A DNA stretch of 20,588 bases from a virus (Duplodnaviria; Heunggongvirae; Uroviricota; Caudoviricetes), in IMG/VR virus record IMGVR_UViG_2531839584_000015; one strand, 5' to 3'. Positions within the stretch are counted from its first letter, which is position 1; the number at the start of each line of letters is the position of its first letter. Position numbers and translations under genes: made by a program. Shown here piece by piece: positions 1 to 20,588 of the stretch. The notes under the pieces are model-generated. The model saw nothing but the letters and a program-made list of their open reading frames with translations. It was not told the DNA's origin and did not search any database.

Positions 1-123
1 CCAGAACAATGGGCGCAGGCCGGGCGACTAATTGCATCAGGAGTTCCTCGCCAGAAGGTGGCGATCATTTATGATGTTGGCGTATCGACTTTGTATAAGA
101 AGTTTCCGGTCGGAGATAAATGA
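1..123 (+). pseudogene. 3' end of Pin/Gin/Hin-family serine DNA invertase remnant, cut by the window edge (same sequence as 19174..19296)
   Basis: Window starts inside the reading frame that ends ...KKFPVGDK with TGA at 121..123; identical to the 3' end of the ORF at 18790..19296. Confidence 0.7.
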
Positions 124-203
124 AACCGTAGCACGTCGTATGCAAGAACGTGCCACGGCTGGCTGATAAGCTTGTAAAAATATTGAACAGGGAGTGGAGC
201 ATT

Positions 204-851
204 CTATGAAGCTAATTTGTTTAATTTCATTTGTAGTGACTTTACTTCTTGGTCGATAATGTCGAATCCCTTATTGACAGCATCTCTTAGCTCTGCATCA
301 ATATTTTTTATCCCTTGAGCATAATCTACCATTACATTTATTTTTGCATCATGTAATCTTTTATACATGGTTTTATCTTTGTTATTGTCTGCCATGCCAA
401 TAAGGATTTTTTCATAATCCTCAATGAGTTTGTTGTTTCCTTTAAATGATTGTATTAATGAGCGTGAATATGTGTATATGTTAATTATTGAGTCTCTAGC
501 AGAATCATTTAGTTTTGCAATGACATTCGCATTTTGCTCATAGAATGTGAAATTATCATCCCCTACAGGGAATGTGAGAATCAACATTTGTCCCGGTTTT
601 ATATTATCAATGTGTGTTTTCATCCTTTTATTATATAAATTGATTAGGGTGAAAACTTCTCCCTTAACTCCTTTTAATACTGAAAGTTGTAATTCAAGGG
701 ATTCTCTTTCTGTCTCTACTTTAGACAGCTTAGCTTGTTGGGTGACTCCTTTTAGGGTAAACCATCCGCCAATAAGAGTACCAACTAGAGCTGTGAGGGA
801 GGAGGATAACCATCCAGGTATGCTATTTAAAAGATTACTAAATTCACTCAT
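204..851 (-). CDS. Hypothetical protein, 215 aa, with predicted N-terminal transmembrane helix and coiled-coil; AT-rich cargo gene
   Basis: Intact ORF in track. Hydrophobic stretch IPGWLSSSLTALVGTLIGGWFTL near the N-terminus, then a charged heptad-like segment. AT-rich codon usage unlike the backbone. No family recognised from memory. Confidence 0.55.
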   Translation of the reverse strand: MSEFSNLLNSIPGWLSSSLTALVGTLIGGWFTLKGVTQQAKLSKVETERESLELQLSVLKGVKGEVFTLINLYNKRMKTHIDNIKPGQMLILTFPVGDDNFTFYEQNANVIAKLNDSARDSIINIYTYSRSLIQSFKGNNKLIEDYEKILIGMADNNKDKTMYKRLHDAKINVMVDYAQGIKNIDAELRDAVNKGFDIIDQEVKSLQMKLNKLAS

Positions 852-909
852 TATAAGTACTCGCTAATATTGAACGATATATATATCAAATTATTATAAA
901 ACTCGTCAG

Positions 910-1344
910 CTACTGGAGAAGGCTACCTGAACTTCGAACTATTCCTGCATCCATATAGTTGATGGTCTTCTGGAGCTCTTCGATTAGGGCAACAGCTTTT
1001 GCTCGAGAAATGCATATTAGTTGATCCGGAAATTCTTGTAAGGGCCAGTTTGGTATACAGGCCATGTTATCAGTGAAGGATGCAGACAAGTAAACTTCAT
1101 TGGTAACCAGAGAATAGCTTACCTCAAAATTGGTGAGTTCCGGCAAACTGCTAACGTTTGACTCTTTTCTGCGCATAATATTATCCATGACTGTAATTAT
1201 GTACAGGTGATGGTCTTCAATTTCGAAGAGGGAGTCAAGGGGGAGTCTCAAATGAACCGTTATAGAAAAGGGGGGGATCTTTGTGTTGCTGAACTTATGC
1301 AAAATTTTTTTGCACCATAAATCCAACAACACATTCAATAACAC
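910..1344 (-). CDS. Hypothetical protein, up to 144 aa; start uncertain (track start is GTG at 1344; in-frame ATG at 1188 would give about 92 aa)
   Basis: ORF in track lies immediately upstream of, and on the same strand as, 204..851 (58-bp gap), so a two-gene operon is likely. The 5' part contains a C7 homopolymer (G7 on + strand, 1270..1276) and promoter-like AT-rich sequence, so the N-terminal extension may not be coding. Confidence 0.4.
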   Translation of the reverse strand: MLLNVLLDLWCKKILHKFSNTKIPPFSITVHLRLPLDSLFEIEDHHLYIITVMDNIMRRKESNVSSLPELTNFEVSYSLVTNEVYLSASFTDNMACIPNWPLQEFPDQLICISRAKAVALIEELQKTINYMDAGIVRSSGSLLQ

Positions 1345-1647
1345 ATTGCTGTATCACTATGAAAATAAATGTGTTTTTATTTGATTTCACACATATCACA
1401 ATTGATGCATTTTTTAGTGATTAGTAAAGACATTTCAATGGATTACCGTTAAATCATTTTAAAATCAGTAAGTTGTATCGAGTTTGTATGCTTTACTGTC
1501 ATTAACTTACTGTATGTTGATCCAGTGTATTTAACCTTGATAAACTCAGTCCAGCAACACAAAACCGCAACACATTGCATTTTGTCCCGTAGAAAAGACT
1601 TGTATGTGTGAGCTTGTTTTCTGCGCCTACGCAGATAAGGATTGAGA

Positions 1648-3045
1648 ATGCCGCGCACTGTAACACATAATCCGGATAGCCCCAATAATGACGATGTTTT
1701 AGCCGCATCTGAAAAATGGGACGCCTGTAAACCCCCCTATACCAGCGCACACATGAAAATCTGTGTTGCTGCCGCCAAAATCATCCTCGCTGCTTCCGGC
1801 GTGGCTCGCCGTTCCAAATACGAAAAAGAGAACTATCTCCGTATCGATTTCAGCAAAGCCGGTAAGGTTACATTTTACGCCGAGTTTCCAAAAAAGATGG
1901 GCCTCAAGGGTAAAAAGCTCGGCGAGTGGCCGGAGCTCGCTATCCAGCTGGCGCGCGAAAAAGCGCTAGGTATGGCTGACGGTGGCTTGCGGGCAGAGTC
2001 CGTACATGCAGCGCTGGAAATGTACCGGGATGACCTCAAAGCCAAAGTCGCCCGGCAGAAGCTGAGCCCGGACAGTTTCACAACCTACGGGGTGCGTATC
2101 GACCGGATTAAAGCAACGTTCGGCGAGCGTGAGGTGTTCAGCGACGTAACATACAATCGGCTGGTGGAAGTGCTGGACGAGTGGATCGCCACTCGCTCGA
2201 ACAATAACGCCCTGGAGTTGTTTGCCGAGCTCCGTCGGTTCTGGAAGTTCTGCGCACCTACTCTTTGTAACGGTCGCAATGTTGCTGCCAGTCTGCCAGA
2301 TGATTATGTTTCCTCCCGCGTACAGAAACCCACCCCCACACGGCTTTTTACCGATATTGAGTCAATCGCCCGGCTCTGGCTCAATGTTGCCGCCTGCACC
2401 TCTGTACACCAGAAGAATGCTGTTCGCTTCATGATCATCACCGGCGTTCGTCCGATTAATGTCCATAACCTGCGCTGGGACTACGTTCACGAGGAGACTG
2501 GCGAAATTGTTTATCCTGAAGGGGTTATCGGCATGCGAGGGGCTATGAAAACACAAAAGGCTTTCCCCCTGCCAATAACGCCGGAGATCCGGCGGATTAT
2601 CGACGAGCAGAAAGCATGGCGTGATTCAGTTCCTGAGTGCAACAGGGATTATGTATTTTTGCAGCCGCGTGATCCAATGCAGCCATTTTCAAAACGATCA
2701 CTGGATAAGCTAGTGAAAACATACAGCCCGGATGGGGCTGTAAAAGGAATAAAACATGATGGGACTGTTAAAGGGAAAGACGGTGCATTTAATACGATGT
2801 GCCGTAAATTCCTTAAGAGCAATGTTATTGCCTTGATGAAGGAAAGAGGCTATTCCCGATCAGACCGAAGGGAAATCAGCCTCCTTTGCCTTCACCACTC
2901 CAGCAAGTCAGATGACCCGATGGCAGAACATTACGACTTTTCTGATGAGATTTTGCAGGAAGAGATTGCGTTAAAGCGCGAAGCTTTCGAGGCTCACGAG
3001 CGGAGCATACTTGCGCAGGTGGCATTGCTACGGCGGCGAGGGTAA
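1648..3045 (+). CDS. Tyrosine-type site-specific recombinase (phage integrase)
   Basis: ORF 1642..3045; ATG at 1648 is preceded by TAAGGA (1636..1641). C-terminal region has a catalytic-domain-like layout (R...H-x-x-R...Y: GVRPINVHNLRWDYV, LLCLHHSSKSD, AEHYDF). Confidence 0.8.
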   Translation: MPRTVTHNPDSPNNDDVLAASEKWDACKPPYTSAHMKICVAAAKIILAASGVARRSKYEKENYLRIDFSKAGKVTFYAEFPKKMGLKGKKLGEWPELAIQLAREKALGMADGGLRAESVHAALEMYRDDLKAKVARQKLSPDSFTTYGVRIDRIKATFGEREVFSDVTYNRLVEVLDEWIATRSNNNALELFAELRRFWKFCAPTLCNGRNVAASLPDDYVSSRVQKPTPTRLFTDIESIARLWLNVAACTSVHQKNAVRFMIITGVRPINVHNLRWDYVHEETGEIVYPEGVIGMRGAMKTQKAFPLPITPEIRRIIDEQKAWRDSVPECNRDYVFLQPRDPMQPFSKRSLDKLVKTYSPDGAVKGIKHDGTVKGKDGAFNTMCRKFLKSNVIALMKERGYSRSDRREISLLCLHHSSKSDDPMAEHYDFSDEILQEEIALKREAFEAHERSILAQVALLRRRG

Positions 3046-4703: not shown

Positions 4704-5582
4704 ATGACCTCAGCTTATACAGATGTCCAGCAAGAAGAAAATATTACTGATAAATTAGTTGTTAAATATGATGGTCCCGCACTAGCAGATCATAAAATAG
4801 ATTTGGATGTTTTAACTGAGTCATTGAATGGACTAAACAACTTGCTTAAAGAAGTTAATTTGGTTGTCAATGGCACTAGTGAGTGTATTAATGTTGAGGT
4901 TGAGCCTTTTAAGGAAGGCTCATTTGAGTATTTGATTGATGTTATTCAAAATCCACTTGACCATTTGAATATATTAAGCATTATTGGGCTTGGAGGTACA
5001 ACTGCACTCGCAGCAGGAAATACTCTCATTGACTTAATTCGTCAGATCAATGGTAGGCAAATAAAACGGTTGACTTTAACAGCGGAAGGAGACTGTAAAA
5101 TAGTTATGGATGATGGTGAGGAAATTATAGCCCCGTCATATTTCCGGCCTTTACTTGCCTCACCAAGCATACGCAAATCCTTATCGAAGTTAATTCATAA
5201 TCCTTTGCAAAAGGAAGGATACGAATCGCTTAAAATTTCAACTCAACAGGGGGTTGAGCTGATTAAGGTGCACGAAGATAATATTGAACCGTTCAGATAT
5301 AGGCGCGTTCCTGTAGTGCAGTCCTTGTCTGAAAGGGTGATTGAAGAGGCTCTAATCACATTTTTGACTATTCATAAGGATAAAAACACAGGCTGGCGAG
5401 TCAACTATGGCGATGACACAATCAGCGTGTCTATAGAAGATACTGAGTTCTTACAACGTGTTAGTACGGGAAGAGAACCTGGTGTTTTTAGTGATGCTTA
5501 CTGCGTTGATTTGCTCGTCCGTGAGAACTTGAATTCGCTGGACAAAACGTACATAGTTGTTAAAGTACACGGCATCTTATAG
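4704..5582 (+). CDS. Hypothetical soluble protein, 292 aa; first gene of AT-rich three-gene cassette
   Basis: Intact ORF with AAAGGAA RBS 7 nt upstream of ATG. A hand count of a 60-nt sample gave about 32% G+C, against about 58% in the neighbouring helicase gene. Opposite strand to the surrounding replication operon. No family recognised. Confidence 0.6.
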   Translation: MTSAYTDVQQEENITDKLVVKYDGPALADHKIDLDVLTESLNGLNNLLKEVNLVVNGTSECINVEVEPFKEGSFEYLIDVIQNPLDHLNILSIIGLGGTTALAAGNTLIDLIRQINGRQIKRLTLTAEGDCKIVMDDGEEIIAPSYFRPLLASPSIRKSLSKLIHNPLQKEGYESLKISTQQGVELIKVHEDNIEPFRYRRVPVVQSLSERVIEEALITFLTIHKDKNTGWRVNYGDDTISVSIEDTEFLQRVSTGREPGVFSDAYCVDLLVRENLNSLDKTYIVVKVHGIL

Positions 5583-5605
5583 TAGATTCACATGGGGAGG
5601 GGGCT

Positions 5606-5854
5606 ATGATTGCTTTTGCTTTTTGGCTGGCTTTTTTTAGCCTGCTTCCCGTACTATATTGGGTTCTTAAGATGGGGTTTGACCGGTTACGCTTTGCGCT
5701 TATGCCTAAACATCATCTTGTTCTTGAATGTGTTGACTCAGAAGGAGTTGTCCGTCGCGATGTCGTTGATGTCTCTTCTGATGATGAATTTTACAAAATT
5801 GCAATGAATGCCATTCGTGCTGGAAGATCAGTCAAAGGAGGGACGTTTGAGTAG
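5606..5854 (+). CDS. Small membrane protein, 82 aa (one N-terminal transmembrane helix plus acidic C-terminal domain)
   Basis: ORF preceded by GGGGAGGGGG RBS-like sequence. N-terminus AFAFWLAFFSLLPVLYWVL is strongly hydrophobic. Sits 24 bp downstream of the 292-aa gene. Confidence 0.5.
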   Translation: MIAFAFWLAFFSLLPVLYWVLKMGFDRLRFALMPKHHLVLECVDSEGVVRRDVVDVSSDDEFYKIAMNAIRAGRSVKGGTFE

Positions 5855-6377
5855 CGCTTCTAAACTTGATAGCTACGAAAAAGTCCCTCTGATTTCTAAT
5901 GTTGCTGCTGGTGGCATCACTGGTTTTTTAACATTACTGGTGTCCTCGTGGGACGGTTGTTTTCCGTATATTGGTTCTGATTTAAATACAATAAAGCCAT
6001 TTCTTTTATTAATGCTTCCCAGTTGCGCTATGTTTCTGGCGCATTGGATAAAGTCGATTGGGTTTAAATGGTCCTTAGGTAGCGTTAATCGACAGTTATT
6101 AAGCATTAATAAGAAGAAAGAAAAAGAACTTCGCCGTGATATTGAAAAGTACAAAAATGTTATTTCTAATGAAAAGATAGAGGACTTTAAAAGTCAACTT
6201 GAACAAGTATTACAAGATCGTCATGATATTATTTCTAATAATTACGCACAGAAACTAAGAGAAAGAAATTATACGCAAGAAAAATATCATGAGCATAAAC
6301 AAACCGCTGCAAATGATAATATTGAGCTGCAAAGCATACTGGAGAATCAGAAGTTCAATCAAAAAGGCATTGACTAA
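5808..6377 (+). CDS. Membrane protein with C-terminal coiled-coil, 176-189 aa; start uncertain (ATG 5808, or in-frame TTG 5847 preceded by AAGGAGG at 5835..5841)
   Basis: ORF overlaps the end of the 82-aa gene in another frame. Two hydrophobic segments (GGITGFLTLLVSS, PFLLLMLPSCAMFLAHWI), then a K/E-rich heptad region. Stop is only 4 bp from the stop of the convergent VRR-NUC gene. Confidence 0.5.
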   Translation: MPFVLEDQSKEGRLSSASKLDSYEKVPLISNVAAGGITGFLTLLVSSWDGCFPYIGSDLNTIKPFLLLMLPSCAMFLAHWIKSIGFKWSLGSVNRQLLSINKKKEKELRRDIEKYKNVISNEKIEDFKSQLEQVLQDRHDIISNNYAQKLRERNYTQEKYHEHKQTAANDNIELQSILENQKFNQKGID

Positions 6378-9267: not shown

Positions 9268-9897
9268 ATGCATATGATCCAATACTTGATTGACCATACA
9301 GAGCATCTGGAGAAAATAGCTGGATATATTTTTTCATGTTTGATTGTTATGGGAGTCTGGATAAGAAAGATCATTTTTAATTATAAGTATAAAGAGCCTA
9401 AATATGTCAAGAAGTTAATTTTATATTTAGTTAAGTATGAACGTTATCTGGATAAGGAGGATAAGAGTGCCATAGAAAAAAGAATAAATGATAAAATTAT
9501 TCGTGATGCGCTGAAATTGCAATCTTCTTATAACCGAAGTGATGTTATTTACATTTGCAATAGATTAGAAAAAAGACAGTATATAAATCAGGTGATTAAG
9601 CTTCAGAATTATATAGAGAAAGATAACGGAGTGTTTTTCATCAATGTTAATTTTTCAGGTTTTTTATTTATTATTAGTCGTCTGTTTTCCTTTCTGTGTT
9701 TTGTGCTGTTTATCCTTTTTTCTATTATCTGCATTATTTCCATAGGGCAAAATGAAGGCCTTTTAAATTATCTTGTGTATATGGTTATGACAATAGTTTT
9801 AGAGACTGTTGGTTTTTGGATGTATGATACTTTCCCGTCTAAGAAGAAGATCTGTGAACTAAATAAAGAATTGAGGAAGATTAAGATTCCTGAGTGA
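9268..9897 (+). CDS. Hypothetical multi-pass membrane protein, 209 aa; AT-rich single-gene insertion
   Basis: Strongly hydrophobic segments (IFSCLIVMGVWI; FSGFLFIISRLFSFLCFVLFILFSIICIISIG; LVYMVMTIVLETVGFW). Lys/Ile/Tyr-rich, AT-rich codons. Opposite strand to the flanking replication genes. Confidence 0.55.
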   Translation: MHMIQYLIDHTEHLEKIAGYIFSCLIVMGVWIRKIIFNYKYKEPKYVKKLILYLVKYERYLDKEDKSAIEKRINDKIIRDALKLQSSYNRSDVIYICNRLEKRQYINQVIKLQNYIEKDNGVFFINVNFSGFLFIISRLFSFLCFVLFILFSIICIISIGQNEGLLNYLVYMVMTIVLETVGFWMYDTFPSKKKICELNKELRKIKIPE

Positions 9898-17388: not shown

Positions 17389-17730
17389 ATGGCTCTGATC
17401 AGCGTTCGCAACAGATTTGAAAGCTTCATGGAACAGAGGTACCCAGACCTGTCGTTGCAGGTCAAAGGTAATATTGGCGCATCAATGAAGGCTCAACTTG
17501 GCATCAGGATTGAACGAGAATTGTACAGTGAAGATGTTACTTACTGTGATTCAGCAGTTCAGTTGATGTGGACACTCTTTCAGGCAGGTGTTCTGGCCGA
17601 ACGAAGAGCTACCAGCGTTACGCTTCCTGCGCTGAAGGCAAAGCCGGATAGCTTCTACGATGCGGGTTATAACGAAGGTATTCAGGACTGTCGTAAACAT
17701 CTGACGGCATCAGGCATCAAGGTAAGATAA
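17389..17730 (+). CDS. Hypothetical protein, 113 aa, co-transcribed with Q
   Basis: ORF with AAGGGA RBS 31 bp after the Q stop. No family recognised. Confidence 0.5.
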   Translation: MALISVRNRFESFMEQRYPDLSLQVKGNIGASMKAQLGIRIERELYSEDVTYCDSAVQLMWTLFQAGVLAERRATSVTLPALKAKPDSFYDAGYNEGIQDCRKHLTASGIKVR

Positions 17731-17974: not shown

Positions 17975-18794
17975 GGCACTGTTGCAAAGTTAGCGATGAG
18001 GCAGCCTTTTGTCTTATTCAAAGGCCTTACATTTCAAAAACTCTGCTTACCAGGCGCATTTCGCCCAGGGGATCACCATAATAAAATGCTGAGGCCTGGC
18101 CTTTGCGTAGTGCACGCATCACCTCAATACCTTTGATGGTGGCGTAAGCCGTCTTCATGGATTTAAATCCCAGCGTGGCGCCGATTATCCGTTTCAGTTT
18201 GCCATGATCGCATTCAATCACGTTGTTCCGGTACTTAATCTGTCGGTGTTCAACGTCAGACGGGCACCGGCCTTCGCGTTTGAGCAGAGCAAGCGCGCGA
18301 CCATAGGCGGGCGCTTTATCCGTGTTGATGAATCGCGGGATCTGCCACTTCTTCACGTTGTTGAGGATTTTACCCAGAAACCGGTATGCAGCTTTGCTGT
18401 TACGACGGGAGGAGAGATAAAAATCGACAGTGCGGCCCCGGCTGTCGACGGCCCGGTACAGATACGCCCAGCGGCCATTGACCTTCACGTAGGTTTCATC
18501 CATGTGCCACGGGCAAAGATCGGAAGGGTTACGCCAGTACCAGCGCAGCCGTTTTTCCATTTCAGGCGCATAACGCTGAACCCAGCGGTAAATCGTGGAG
18601 TGATCGACATTCACTCCGCGTTCAGCCAGCATCTCCTGCAGCTCACGGTAACTGATGCCGTATTTGCAGTACCAGCGTACGGCCCACAGAATGATGTCAC
18701 GCTGAAAATGCCGGCCTTTGAATGGGTTCATGTGCAGCTCCATCAGCAAAAGGGGATGATAAGTTTATCACCACCGACTATTTGCAACAGTGCC
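17975..18794 (-). mobile_element. IS26 (IS6 family), complete 820-bp copy
   Basis: 14-bp terminal inverted repeats GGCACTGTTGCAAA at 17975..17988 and the reverse complement at 18781..18794. Internal transposase matches Tnp26. Flanking 8-mers differ (CGCAAATC vs ACGTAATG), so there is no target-site duplication. Confidence 0.95.
18027..18731 (-). CDS. tnp26: IS26 transposase Tnp26 (DDE), 234 aa
   Basis: Protein MNPFKGRHFQRDIILWAVRWYCKYGISYRELQEMLAERGVNVDHSTIYRWVQRYAPEMEK... is the canonical IS26 transposase. The track ORF starts 6 codons upstream (MLMELH). Confidence 0.95.
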   Translation of the reverse strand: MNPFKGRHFQRDIILWAVRWYCKYGISYRELQEMLAERGVNVDHSTIYRWVQRYAPEMEKRLRWYWRNPSDLCPWHMDETYVKVNGRWAYLYRAVDSRGRTVDFYLSSRRNSKAAYRFLGKILNNVKKWQIPRFINTDKAPAYGRALALLKREGRCPSDVEHRQIKYRNNVIECDHGKLKRIIGATLGFKSMKTAYATIKGIEVMRALRKGQASAFYYGDPLGEMRLVSRVFEM

Positions 18795-19296
18795 ACGTAA
18801 TGCGCTGAACTGTGCAGGATGCGAGCTGATTTTTGAAGACAAGATAAGCGGCACAAAGTCCGAAAGGCCGGGACTGAAAAAACTGCTTAGGACATTATCG
18901 GCAGGTGACACTCTGGTTGTCTGGAAGCTGGACCGACTGGGGCGCAGTATGCGGCATCTTGTCGTGCTGGTGGAGGGGTTGCGCGAACGAGGCATTAACT
19001 TTCGTAGTCTGACGGATTCAATTGATACCAGCACACCGATGGGGCGTTTTTTCTTTCATGTGATGGGTGCCCTGGCTGAAATGGAACGAGAACTGATTGT
19101 TGAACGAACAAAAGCTGGACTGGAAGCTGCTCGCGCACAGGGACGAATTGGTGGACGTCGTCCCAAACTTACACCAGAACAATGGGCGCAGGCCGGGCGA
19201 CTAATTGCATCAGGAGTTCCTCGCCAGAAGGTGGCGATCATTTATGATGTTGGCGTATCGACTTTGTATAAGAAGTTTCCGGTCGGAGATAAATGA
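18795..19296 (+). pseudogene. Pin/Gin/Hin-family serine DNA invertase, 5'-truncated by IS26 (catalytic serine region missing)
   Basis: Translation RNALNCAGCELIFEDKISGTKSERPGLKKLL...GRFFFHVMGALAEMERELIVERTKAGL... aligns from about residue 19 of Pin/Gin. Homology starts exactly at the IS26 boundary. The N-terminal MLIGYVRVST segment with the active-site Ser is absent. Confidence 0.8.
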
Positions 19297-19376
19297 AACC
19301 GTAGCACGTCGTATGCAAGAACGTGCCACGGCTGGCTGATAAGCTTGTAAAAATATTGAACAGGGAGTGGAGCATT

Positions 19377-20024
19377 CTATGAAGCTAATTTGTTTAATTT
19401 CATTTGTAGTGACTTTACTTCTTGGTCGATAATGTCGAATCCCTTATTGACAGCATCTCTTAGCTCTGCATCAATATTTTTTATCCCTTGAGCATAATCT
19501 ACCATTACATTTATTTTTGCATCATGTAATCTTTTATACATGGTTTTATCTTTGTTATTGTCTGCCATGCCAATAAGGATTTTTTCATAATCCTCAATGA
19601 GTTTGTTGTTTCCTTTAAATGATTGTATTAATGAGCGTGAATATGTGTATATGTTAATTATTGAGTCTCTAGCAGAATCATTTAGTTTTGCAATGACATT
19701 CGCATTTTGCTCATAGAATGTGAAATTATCATCCCCTACAGGGAATGTGAGAATCAACATTTGTCCCGGTTTTATATTATCAATGTGTGTTTTCATCCTT
19801 TTATTATATAAATTGATTAGGGTGAAAACTTCTCCCTTAACTCCTTTTAATACTGAAAGTTGTAATTCAAGGGATTCTCTTTCTGTCTCTACTTTAGACA
19901 GCTTAGCTTGTTGGGTGACTCCTTTTAGGGTAAACCATCCGCCAATAAGAGTACCAACTAGAGCTGTGAGGGAGGAGGATAACCATCCAGGTATGCTATT
20001 TAAAAGATTACTAAATTCACTCAT
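19377..20024 (-). CDS. Hypothetical membrane-anchored protein, 215 aa (second copy of 204..851)
   Basis: Protein identical to 204..851 in the ORF track; part of the terminal duplication. Confidence 0.55.
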   Translation of the reverse strand: MSEFSNLLNSIPGWLSSSLTALVGTLIGGWFTLKGVTQQAKLSKVETERESLELQLSVLKGVKGEVFTLINLYNKRMKTHIDNIKPGQMLILTFPVGDDNFTFYEQNANVIAKLNDSARDSIINIYTYSRSLIQSFKGNNKLIEDYEKILIGMADNNKDKTMYKRLHDAKINVMVDYAQGIKNIDAELRDAVNKGFDIIDQEVKSLQMKLNKLAS

Positions 20025-20082
20025 TATAAGTACTCGCTAATATTGAACGATATATATATCAAATTATTATAAAACTCGTCAG

Positions 20083-20517
20083 CTACTGGAGAAGGCTACC
20101 TGAACTTCGAACTATTCCTGCATCCATATAGTTGATGGTCTTCTGGAGCTCTTCGATTAGGGCAACAGCTTTTGCTCGAGAAATGCATATTAGTTGATCC
20201 GGAAATTCTTGTAAGGGCCAGTTTGGTATACAGGCCATGTTATCAGTGAAGGATGCAGACAAGTAAACTTCATTGGTAACCAGAGAATAGCTTACCTCAA
20301 AATTGGTGAGTTCCGGCAAACTGCTAACGTTTGACTCTTTTCTGCGCATAATATTATCCATGACTGTAATTATGTACAGGTGATGGTCTTCAATTTCGAA
20401 GAGGGAGTCAAGGGGGAGTCTCAAATGAACCGTTATAGAAAAGGGGGGGATCTTTGTGTTGCTGAACTTATGCAAAATTTTTTTGCACCATAAATCCAAC
20501 AACACATTCAATAACAC
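20083..20517 (-). CDS. Hypothetical protein, up to 144 aa (second copy of 910..1344)
   Basis: Protein identical to 910..1344; same start-site uncertainty. Confidence 0.4.
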   Translation of the reverse strand: MLLNVLLDLWCKKILHKFSNTKIPPFSITVHLRLPLDSLFEIEDHHLYIITVMDNIMRRKESNVSSLPELTNFEVSYSLVTNEVYLSASFTDNMACIPNWPLQEFPDQLICISRAKAVALIEELQKTINYMDAGIVRSSGSLLQ

Positions 20518-20588
20518 ATTGCTGTATCACTATGAAAATAAATGTGTTTTTATTTGATTTCACACATATCACAATTGATGCATTTTTT

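What the first reader, a model, noticed from the sequence alone, without database searches (positions are those of the whole stretch)
204..1415. AT-rich two-gene operon downstream of the invertase remnant (duplicated at 19377..20588)
A 144-aa-maximum ORF and a 215-aa membrane-anchored coiled-coil protein form a minus-strand operon immediately after the Pin-like invertase. This mirrors the position where e14-type elements carry a restriction or exclusion gene after pin. Neither protein is recognisable. The 58-bp intergenic spacer contains a perfect palindrome GATATATATATC (876..887).
Basis: partly seen in the sequence, partly recalled or inferred. Interest (0 to 1): 0.7.

Follow-up and report, generated by a model that had tools for sequence, protein, structure and literature searches.

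The report
Unknown membrane protein in prophage cargo slot
At the far end of a defective E. coli prophage, just after the tail-fibre invertase, sits a swappable "cargo" position that here holds a gene for an uncharacterised membrane-tethered protein, possibly a phage-exclusion factor, from a large unnamed family that travels alone on many kinds of mobile elements.

Summary
The sequence features are real, but three details need correcting.

- **Duplicate.** The "duplicate" at 19377..20588 is only the wrap-around of a 19,173-bp circular sequence.
- **Upstream ORF.** The 144-aa ORF is really a conserved 88-aa gene (910..1176, minus strand; phrog_17793, function unknown).
- **Pairing.** The two genes are neighbours, probably co-transcribed, but not a conserved pair.

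The 88-aa gene is the outermost backbone gene of a prophage lineage that integrates in yfhL. What lies between it and pin varies:

- nothing in Citrobacter;
- a glycosyltransferase cluster in Salmonella;
- a 281-aa protein in other E. coli;
- the 215-aa gene here, present in 80 of 5,426 complete E. coli genomes.

The 215-aa protein matches nothing in Pfam, NCBIfam, PADLOC or PDB sequences, and has only chance-level PHROG hits. It belongs to a large family of about 200-aa proteins (664 clusters at 50% identity). Members occur singly in other prophages (directly after cI), satellites, an ICE, likely phage-plasmids and small islets, beside toxin-antitoxin genes and, in some loci, defence genes.

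The predicted protein has a glycine-zipper-like N-terminal membrane helix and a cytoplasmic helical bundle.

My best reading is a lysogen-expressed exclusion or abortive-infection factor. That function is inferred, not shown. Interest is moderate.

The parts
204..851 (-). Cargo gene encoding a 215-aa protein (RefSeq WP_001288820.1, 'hypothetical protein'). It has an N-terminal membrane helix and a predicted cytoplasmic helical bundle.
   Evidence: ORF. No Pfam, PADLOC or NCBIfam hit and only chance-level PHROG hits. Family: 216 clusters at 90% identity and 664 representatives at 50% identity. AlphaFold2 pLDDT 84, pTM 0.71. RefSeq annotation.
753..809 (-). Codons for the membrane helix (about residues 15-33). 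It carries a conserved small-residue (glycine-zipper-like) face at positions 20/21, 24/25, 28/29, 32 and 35.
   Evidence: Hydropathy and flanking charges: K+R averages 0.47 before the helix and 2.98 after it, and 50 of 58 members have more on the C-terminal side. Positions 20, 21, 24, 25, 28, 29 and 35 are 81-100% G/A/S across 58 members that share about 25% identity; position 32 is mostly T/A/S.
113..160 (-). Terminator-like hairpin after the 215-aa stop codon: 14-bp stem at 124-160, then UUUCAUUUAU. It overlaps the pin stop codon.
   Evidence: RNA fold of 105-205(-): minimum free energy -23.8 kcal/mol, z = -2.0 against shuffles. The simple terminator scan did not flag it on this strand.
852..909 (-). 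58-bp spacer between the two genes. It contains the palindrome GATATATATATC (876-887). The left limit of homology with the alternative-cargo phage lies at about 894/895.
   Evidence: Homology with phage vB_EcoM-606R2 starts at window 895. The palindrome is absent upstream of homologues in other genera.
910..1176 (-). Conserved 88-aa backbone gene (phrog_17793, function unknown). It is the outermost gene of the prophage right arm and points inward.
   Evidence: phrog_17793 E = 4.7e-43 over residues 57-143 of the long ORF. 58 clusters in E. coli, Salmonella and Citrobacter, 87-88 aa long. pN/pS 0.14-0.25, with stop codons in the upstream extension of relatives. Contexts. AlphaFold2 is low-confidence (pLDDT 64), three strands then a helix.
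1177..1385 (-). Non-coding leader between the att core and the 88-aa gene. No promoter or terminator consensus was detected.
1386..1423 (.). 38-bp attachment-site core (attP), identical to a stretch inside the 5' end of chromosomal yfhL.
   Evidence: The overlap of the two chromosomal junction matches. 100% match to K-12 2699673-2699710. yfhL is rebuilt at attL, and native yfhL' reads into the 88-aa gene at attR.
1..123 (+). 3' end of the truncated pin invertase gene (continuation of 18795..19296 around the circle).
   Evidence: Resolvase and HTH_7 domains, with the profile match starting at position 26. The first 53 nt of pinE are missing relative to ETEC-2264.
17975..18794 (-). IS26. It replaces 23,368 bp of late genes and truncates pin.
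   Evidence: Terminal inverted repeats GGCACTGTTGCAAA at 17975 and 18781. DDE_Tnp_IS240 transposase. Deletion mapped.
19174..20588 (.). Wrap-around copy of window 1..1415 (not a biological duplication).
   Evidence: 100% identity over 1,415 bases, touching both ends of the window.

Best explanation
**What it is**

The region is the right-end cargo slot of a yfhL-integrating E. coli prophage, seen here in its circular attP form and crippled by an IS26 deletion.

- The 88-aa gene belongs to the prophage backbone. It is the last gene before the attachment site and reads inward.
- The 215-aa gene is an independently mobile accessory ("moron") gene dropped between the 88-aa gene and pin.

**Expression (inferred)**
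- The two genes are probably transcribed together, because no terminator separates them and a hairpin follows the 215-aa gene.
- In a lysogen, the host yfhL promoter and the first 16 yfhL codons lie directly upstream in the same orientation. Expression may therefore come from read-through of host transcription.

**The protein (predicted)**
- A short N-terminal tail lies outside the membrane.
- One inner-membrane helix carries a conserved glycine-zipper-like face, which suggests self-association.
- A cytoplasmic helical bundle carries a conserved polar and aromatic cluster (E65, Y73, F101, N107, Y126, N139, N140, Y177).

**Most likely function (inferred, not shown)**

A single-gene factor made in the lysogen that protects the host or element against other phages. 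The bundle would sense an infection cue, and the membrane helices would then assemble to disturb the membrane (abortive infection) or block a membrane-associated step of infection.
For: **Shown: anatomy and cargo slot**
- The window is a circle, and its att core is a stretch of yfhL.
- Slot content varies while the 88-aa gene stays fixed:
  - nothing in Citrobacter;
  - 58-aa, 89-aa and GT4 glycosyltransferase genes in Salmonella;
  - a 281-aa protein in phage 606R2 and other E. coli;
  - the 215-aa gene in 80 of 5,426 E. coli genomes, against 121 with the 88-aa region.

**Shown: the 215-aa gene travels alone on unrelated mobile elements**
- In a Providencia lambdoid prophage it sits directly downstream of cI and an HSDR_N protein, the position of rexAB in lambda.
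- In Klebsiella and Erwinia satellites it sits beside the integrase.
- In Dickeya it lies in an ICE near CcdAB.
- In Enterobacter it lies in an islet beside HigBA.
- Homologues at 31% identity occur on non-mobilizable IncFIB plasmids of about 110 kb carrying phage genes.
- No 88-aa homologue is present in any of these loci.

**Shown: signs of selection and foreign origin**
- Conservation is strong within a large family.
- GC content is 35% against 47.6% for the element.

**Predicted structure and topology**
- The AlphaFold2 model is confident.
- The positive-inside rule gives an N-out, C-in topology in 50 of 58 members.
- The small-residue face of the membrane helix is conserved.

**Neighbourhood**
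- Among 105 ORFs within three genes of family members at 20 loci, there are PADLOC matches to PifA, PDC-S18, PDC-S20, a ThsB-like TIR protein (PDC-S66), PD-Lambda-2 A and B, and QatA.

**Transcription**
- No stable structure forms in the spacer, and a hairpin follows the 215-aa gene.
- yfhL' points into the genes in a lysogen.

**Analogy**
- In e14, the restriction gene mcrA occupies the same post-pin position.
Against: - There is no experimental or homology evidence for any function. Pfam, PADLOC (2023), NCBIfam and PDB sequences give nothing for the window protein, PHROGs gives it only chance-level hits (E 0.09 or worse), and 58 diverse members match no family consistently.
- The defence association is guilt by association, without a background control. 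Many neighbours are housekeeping or unknown genes.
- The PADLOC neighbour output is aggregated, so I cannot say how many loci carry a hit. At least one match (pVip) is probably a radical-SAM false positive.
- The family is absent from 50,697 deposited phage genomes.
- No promoter was identified, so expression is unproven.
- Topology and oligomerisation rest on rules of thumb.
Confidence: 0.42

Rival explanations
1. The 88-aa and 215-aa proteins form a true two-component system, for example antitoxin-toxin or sensor-effector, as the first reader's "operon" implies.
For: - The genes are tandem, on the same strand and 58 bp apart, with no terminator between them.
- A small upstream gene followed by a larger membrane protein resembles the antitoxin-toxin gene order.
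- Homologues of the 215-aa protein often sit near toxin-antitoxin pairs.
Against: - The pairing is not conserved. There is no 88-aa homologue in any of the non-E. coli loci fetched at that point that carry a 215-aa homologue (tblastn).
- The 88-aa gene occurs alone in Citrobacter, abutting the invertase, and with unrelated cargo elsewhere.
- The 88-aa family is confined to E. coli, Salmonella and Citrobacter, whereas the 215-aa family is far wider.
- The homology breakpoint at 894/895 separates the two genes.
Confidence: 0.08
2. The 215-aa protein is a cargo gene with a function other than defence. Examples are an envelope or stress-related lysogenic-conversion factor, or a factor serving the mobile element itself (maintenance, or control of membrane-associated steps).
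For: - It is membrane-tethered and has no enzymatic signature.
- Many neighbours are not defence genes, for example LysR regulators, transporters, Crl and EAL-domain proteins.
- In Enterobacter it sits in a fixed chromosomal islet shared by many genomes (700 contigs for P0017).
- The helical-bundle fold is also typical of sensory and scaffolding proteins.
Against: - Its distribution is patchy (1.5% of E. coli genomes).
- It is carried by five different kinds of mobile element, at the positions where exclusion or defence genes usually sit: after cI, beside the integrase, and at the prophage end after pin.
- It lies next to toxin-antitoxin, TIR, PifA and PD-Lambda-2 genes.
Confidence: 0.3
3. The 215-aa protein is a phage structural, tail-fibre-accessory or lysis protein (holin- or spanin-like) left at the end of the late region.
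For: - It lies next to the tail-fibre invertible segment in intact prophages.
- It has an N-terminal membrane helix followed by long helices, superficially like an inner-membrane spanin.
Against: - It is oriented against the late operon.
- It matches no tail-fibre-assembly, holin or spanin family.
- It is absent from 50,697 phage genome records.
- It is found in an ICE and in chromosomal islets with no phage genes.
- In Providencia it sits in the immunity region, not the lysis cassette.
Confidence: 0.03
4. The genes are decaying remnants with no function in this defective element.
For: - The element has lost all late genes, and pin is truncated by IS26.
- pin is also frameshifted in H10407 and O103:H2 12009.
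- PGAP usually does not call the 88-aa gene.
Against: - Both ORFs are intact here and across relatives.
- The 88-aa gene has pN/pS of 0.14-0.25.
- The 215-aa family has dozens of invariant columns across genera and keeps full length across 664 clusters.
- The gene is 95-100% identical and annotated as a complete gene in all 80 E. coli genomes that carry it.
Confidence: 0.04

Closest known systems
e14 prophage pinE-mcrA end (E. coli K-12)
   Same: An accessory, host-protective gene sits between the tail-fibre invertase and the prophage end (order stfE-pinE-mcrA-end). In the lineage studied here, the same position holds interchangeable cargo.
   Different: McrA is an HNH-type Type IV restriction enzyme on the same strand as pin. 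The cargo here is convergent with pin, has no nuclease domain, is membrane-tethered, and is preceded by a conserved 88-aa backbone gene.
Lambda rexA-rexB, and other lysogen-expressed exclusion genes downstream of cI
   Same: In the Providencia prophage, the homologue lies directly downstream of cI on the same strand, after one intervening gene. That is the classic place for lysogen-expressed exclusion genes (from my own knowledge). Like RexB, it is an inner-membrane protein, and a membrane-disturbing mode of action is plausible.
   Different: There is no sequence or fold relation to RexA or RexB. RexB has four membrane helices and needs RexA; this protein has one helix and travels alone. No function has been shown.
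HK97 gp15-type moron superinfection-exclusion proteins (small proteins with one N-terminal membrane helix, encoded at the end of the late region)
   Same: It is a single small gene inserted as a moron near the tail-gene end of a prophage. It has its own orientation and encodes a protein with one N-terminal membrane helix. The comparison is from my own knowledge and was not tested here.
   Different: There is no detectable homology. The predicted topology here puts the bulk of the protein in the cytoplasm, so blocking DNA entry from the periplasmic side is less likely.
Four-helix-bundle sensor domains (Tsr/Tar ligand-binding domain; DUF3829)
   Different: - Sequence identity is only 10-12%.
- No Pfam 4HB_MCP hit was found.
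- Chemoreceptor bundles are periplasmic and flanked by two membrane helices.
- Helical bundles match each other generically.
phrog_17793 (for the 88-aa protein)
   Same: The 88-aa protein is a clear member (E = 4.7e-43, full-length match to the 91-position profile).

Membership tests
Known or candidate anti-phage defence systems (PADLOC-DB v2.0.0, 2023) | Significant match of the protein to a defence-protein profile | tested here: not met
   No hit for either protein at E <= 1. No family was matched by more than one of 58 diverse relatives.
Known or candidate anti-phage defence systems | Genomic association with known defence genes or defence islands | tested here: inconclusive
   Some neighbours match PifA, PDC-S18, PDC-S20, ThsB-like TIR, PD-Lambda-2 and QatA. 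There is no background control, and many neighbours are unrelated genes.
Known or candidate anti-phage defence systems | Protection against phage infection when expressed | not testable with these tools
   Requires phage-challenge experiments.
e14-type post-pin restriction gene (McrA-like) | Position between the invertase and the prophage end | tested here: met
   Window 204-851 lies between pin (1-123) and the att core (1386-1423). The e14 gene order is confirmed.
e14-type post-pin restriction gene (McrA-like) | HNH or other nuclease domain | tested here: not met
   No Pfam or NCBIfam domain was found.
Toxin-antitoxin or other obligate two-gene module | Conserved co-occurrence of the two genes across genomes | tested here: not met
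   tblastn with the 88-aa protein finds nothing in the non-E. coli loci carrying 215-aa homologues. The 88-aa gene occurs alone or with other cargo.
Tail-fibre assembly or structural proteins next to invertible segments | Homology to Caudo_TAP, tail-fibre or virion protein families | tested here: not met
   No Pfam hit. PHROG hits are only at E >= 0.09. tblastn finds nothing in 50,697 phage records.
Superinfection exclusion protein B (Pfam SieB) and other Pfam exclusion or Abi families | Profile match | tested here: not met
   No Pfam family at E <= 0.1 for the window protein and none shared among 58 relatives.
4HB_MCP / chemoreceptor-type four-helix-bundle sensor domain | Four-helix-bundle fold | tested here: inconclusive
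4HB_MCP / chemoreceptor-type four-helix-bundle sensor domain | Periplasmic location between two membrane helices | tested here: not met
   There is only one hydrophobic segment, and the charge bias predicts a cytoplasmic bundle.
phrog_17793 (88-aa protein) | Full-length profile match | tested here: met
   E = 4.7e-43, profile positions 1-87 of 91.

The most novel reading that the evidence does not exclude
The 215-aa protein is the first noticed member of a large, unnamed family of single-gene immunity proteins carried by mobile elements (at least 664 clusters at 50% identity). A cytoplasmic four-helix-bundle sensor is tethered by a glycine-zipper membrane helix. On sensing infection, the helices assemble into a membrane lesion. 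In this prophage the gene is switched on by read-through from the host yfhL promoter captured at integration.
Probability: 0.3. Interest if true: 0.6.

Novelty: new variant of a known kind. Interest (0 to 1): 0.4.

Why it matters
- **A new immunity family, if the defence reading is right.** It would add a compact, single-gene, membrane-acting family that current defence catalogues miss. The family spreads across Enterobacterales on prophages, satellites, ICEs and probably phage-plasmids.
- **A place to look for more accessory genes.** The result defines a concrete cargo slot (pin, then cargo, then the 88-aa gene, then att) in a common E. coli and Salmonella prophage lineage. The slot can be mined for further accessory genes.
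- **A lesson for genome scans.** The apparent duplication, the ORF length and the "operon" all changed once related genomes were compared. Without experiments, the 215-aa protein remains one well-described hypothetical protein among many.

Tried and rejected
**Homology and fold searches for the 215-aa protein and its relatives**
- Profile libraries gave no usable match.
  - Pfam, PADLOC and NCBIfam found nothing for the window protein.
  - PHROGs gave it only chance-level hits (E 0.09 or worse).
  - Scans of 58 diverse relatives found no family matched by more than one member in Pfam or PADLOC; four matched one PHROG of unknown function.
- A profile search of PDB sequences gave no hit better than E = 0.13.
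- Foldseek against viral structures gave nothing at E <= 0.001.
- The afdb50 structure library was unavailable.

**Searches in phage records and the literature**
- tblastn of three subfamily members against 50,697 phage records found no match.
- Literature searches for the accessions and for the concept found nothing relevant.

**The 88-aa protein**
- The structure model is low-confidence. Its COMM-domain and Pur-alpha-like matches are too weak to use.

**Other checks**
- Rfam and tRNA scans of the window found nothing.
- The promoter scan found no convincing promoter for either gene.
- The palindrome as an operator or terminator was rejected. It is not conserved elsewhere, and the spacer fold is unremarkable.
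- The suspected tandem paralogue in L064 is unrelated.

Full report
**1. What the window is**

Window 1..1415 is identical, base for base, to 19174..20588. The window is therefore a 19,173-bp circle written with an overlap, and the "duplicate" at 19377..20588 is the same DNA read twice.

The element carries the following genes:
- a tyrosine integrase (1642-3045);
- an SNF2 helicase;
- a family-A DNA polymerase;
- an Enc34-type ssDNA-binding protein;
- a DUF2800 nuclease;
- cI and cro;
- a VapE-type primase/helicase;
- antiterminator Q;
- IS26, with terminal repeats at 17975 and 18781;
- a truncated Pin-type invertase (18795-19296, continuing to 1-123).

Complete E. coli genomes show the intact relative. 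It is a 41.7-kb prophage between yfhL and yfhH, for example in ETEC-2264. The two chromosomal junction matches overlap by 38 bp (window 1386-1423). That stretch is identical to a segment inside the 5' end of K-12 yfhL. The window therefore carries the attP junction of the excised form. Relative to ETEC-2264, IS26 has replaced 23,368 bp of late genes and the first 53 nt of pinE.

**2. Check of the observation**

Confirmed features:
- Both ORFs exist.
- The spacer is 58 bp.
- GATATATATATC is at 876-887, and such a match is not expected by chance.
- The region is 35% GC against 47.6% for the element.

The upstream gene is over-extended in the finding:
- phrog_17793 matches only residues 57-143 of the 144-aa ORF.
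- Homologues are 87-88 aa.
- The extension contains stop codons in relatives, while the 88-aa part has pN/pS of 0.14-0.25.
- The gene is therefore 910..1176 (-).

**3. The two genes are neighbours, not partners**

The 88-aa family is narrow: E. coli, Salmonella and Citrobacter, 58 clusters. It is always the outermost gene of the prophage right arm and points inward. What lies between it and the invertase or tail-fibre module changes:
- nothing in Citrobacter;
- a 58-aa gene, an 89-aa gene and a GT4 glycosyltransferase in Salmonella;
- a 281-aa hypothetical protein in phage vB_EcoM-606R2 and other E. coli genomes, where the insertion truncates pin;
- the 215-aa gene here.

Among 5,426 complete E. 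coli genomes, 121 hold the 88-aa region and 80 hold the 215-aa gene. Nucleotide homology with the alternative-cargo phage starts at window 895, between the two genes.

Homologues of the 215-aa protein occur singly in quite different settings:
- a Providencia lambdoid prophage, directly after cI and an HSDR_N protein;
- Klebsiella and Erwinia satellite-like elements, beside the integrase;
- a Dickeya ICE near CcdAB;
- an Enterobacter islet beside HigBA;
- IncFIB non-mobilizable plasmids of about 110 kb carrying phage genes, at 31% identity.

No 88-aa homologue is present in any of these loci.

In this arrangement the genes are probably co-transcribed. The spacer has no stable structure, and a 14-bp hairpin followed by UUUCAUUUAU follows the 215-aa stop codon.

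In a lysogen, the native yfhL promoter region and the first 16 yfhL codons lie immediately upstream in the same orientation. The phage rebuilds yfhL at the other junction. Read-through from host transcription is therefore a plausible source of expression. I did not find a consensus promoter.

**4. The 215-aa protein**

- *No informative database match.* Pfam, NCBIfam and PADLOC give nothing, and PHROGs gives only chance-level hits at E 0.09 or worse.
- *Close relatives.* Proteins at 62-75% identity are all "hypothetical" and spread across Enterobacterales.
- *Wider family.* A profile search of 1.84 billion representatives found 664 proteins at E <= 0.001 and 253 at E <= 1e-10. Nearly all are 190-230 aa and align full-length.
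- *Diverse members.* Fifty-eight members at about 25% identity match no Pfam or PADLOC family consistently and no PDB sequence; four match one PHROG of unknown function.
- *Phage records.* Three subfamily members find nothing in 50,697 deposited phage genomes.

Charge bias places the bundle in the cytoplasm. K+R averages 0.47 before the helix and 2.98 after it, and 50 of 58 members have more on the C-terminal side.

The membrane helix keeps a face of small residues at positions 20/21, 24/25, 28/29, 32 and 35. Seven of these eight positions are 81-100% G/A/S in members that otherwise share a quarter of their residues; position 32 is mostly T, A or S. From general knowledge of glycine-zipper helices, that pattern suggests helix-helix packing rather than a passive anchor.

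E65 and F101 are invariant across the diverse set. G24, Y73, N107, Y126, N139, N140 and Y177 are nearly so.

**5. Function**

Nothing here demonstrates a function. The case for a phage-exclusion or abortive-infection role is circumstantial:
- carriage by at least five kinds of mobile element, at the positions where such genes usually sit;
- patchy distribution and low GC;
- neighbours that include toxin-antitoxin pairs, a ThsB-like TIR protein, and, among 105 ORFs within three genes at 20 loci, matches to PifA, PDC-S18, PDC-S20, PD-Lambda-2 A and B, and QatA;
- the e14 precedent of mcrA after pinE.

Against this reading:
- many neighbours are ordinary genes;
- I had no background rate for comparison;
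- the PADLOC output is aggregated, so I cannot say how many loci carry a hit;
- the family is missing from deposited phage genomes.

I put the exclusion or abortive-infection reading at roughly 0.4. A non-defence accessory role is at about 0.3. The two-gene-system, structural and decay readings are each below 0.1.

**6. The 88-aa protein**

Its fixed position upstream of changing cargo is compatible with two roles: a backbone gene that simply provides the transcript into which cargo is inserted, or a regulator. I cannot distinguish between them.

**7. Verdict**

- The finding is best described as a prophage-terminal cargo slot holding an uncharacterised, widely distributed, membrane-tethered protein.
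- It is a reasonable candidate for phage-challenge testing, but not a surprising object in itself.

Noticed in passing
window 1386-1423 and 1424-1440 (minus strand): The 38-bp att core lies inside the 5' coding end of yfhL. The phage carries a replacement start (ATG at 1432, minus strand; MSLLITKKC... in place of MALLITKKC...), so an intact yfhL is rebuilt at attL on integration. In the circular form this start heads an 18-codon mini-ORF that reads towards the 88-aa gene.
   Followed up: partly
window 17975-18794: IS26 replaces 23,368 bp of late genes (lysis, head, tail and tail fibres) relative to the ETEC-2264 prophage, and removes the first 53 nt of pinE. The element cannot form virions, yet it appears as a circular attP molecule that keeps the integrase, DNA polymerase, primase/helicase, SSB, cI/cro and Q. 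Whether it replicates as a plasmid-like circle or is an excision product is unknown.
   Followed up: partly
window 4704-6377: A second AT-rich island (32-42% GC) lies in the early region. It holds a 292-aa protein matching the PADLOC candidate defence family PDC-S42 (E = 6e-40) and NCBIfam 'LAPAL motif-containing putative phage structural protein'. An 82-aa ORF (phrog_15510) and a 189-aa ORF (phrog_15878), both of unknown function, follow it.
   Followed up: no
window 9268-9897: A very AT-rich (29-35% GC) 209-aa ORF (phrog_10579, unknown function) lies on the opposite strand between the DNA polymerase and SSB genes. It has weak membrane-protein or holin-like hits and looks like another moron.
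   Followed up: no
window 910-1176; E. coli genomes: In most complete E. coli genomes listed, the RefSeq annotation (PGAP) shows no feature over the 88-aa gene ('none' under the match), although the gene is under purifying selection. Some older records annotate the 215-aa gene as a 139-aa protein starting at M77, which removes the membrane helix (P0118-P0120).
   Followed up: partly
L020 and L022 from about 6690; L021 from about 6680 (Klebsiella satellite-like elements): Immediately downstream of the 218-aa homologue are arrays of short direct repeats. L020 and L022 carry GGGGAGGGG...CCCCC units, and L021 carries GGTAAAGCTATAG units. They look like iterons or operator arrays and differ between otherwise similar elements.
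   Followed up: no
L049 and L050 region of H10407 and O103:H2 12009 (loci L028, L029: 947-1500): pinE next to the 215-aa gene is annotated as frameshifted in ETEC H10407 and O103:H2 12009. It is truncated by the 281-aa cargo in strains Nord1 and ES1, and by IS26 in this window. The invertase therefore seems to be lost repeatedly while the cargo is kept.
   Followed up: no
window 17389-17730: The 113-aa ORF after Q matches two different PHROGs in its two halves: phrog_37465 over residues 1-41, and the head-closure family phrog_15831 over residues 60-112. It ends 244 bp before IS26. It may be a fusion or a mis-joined ORF.
   Followed up: no
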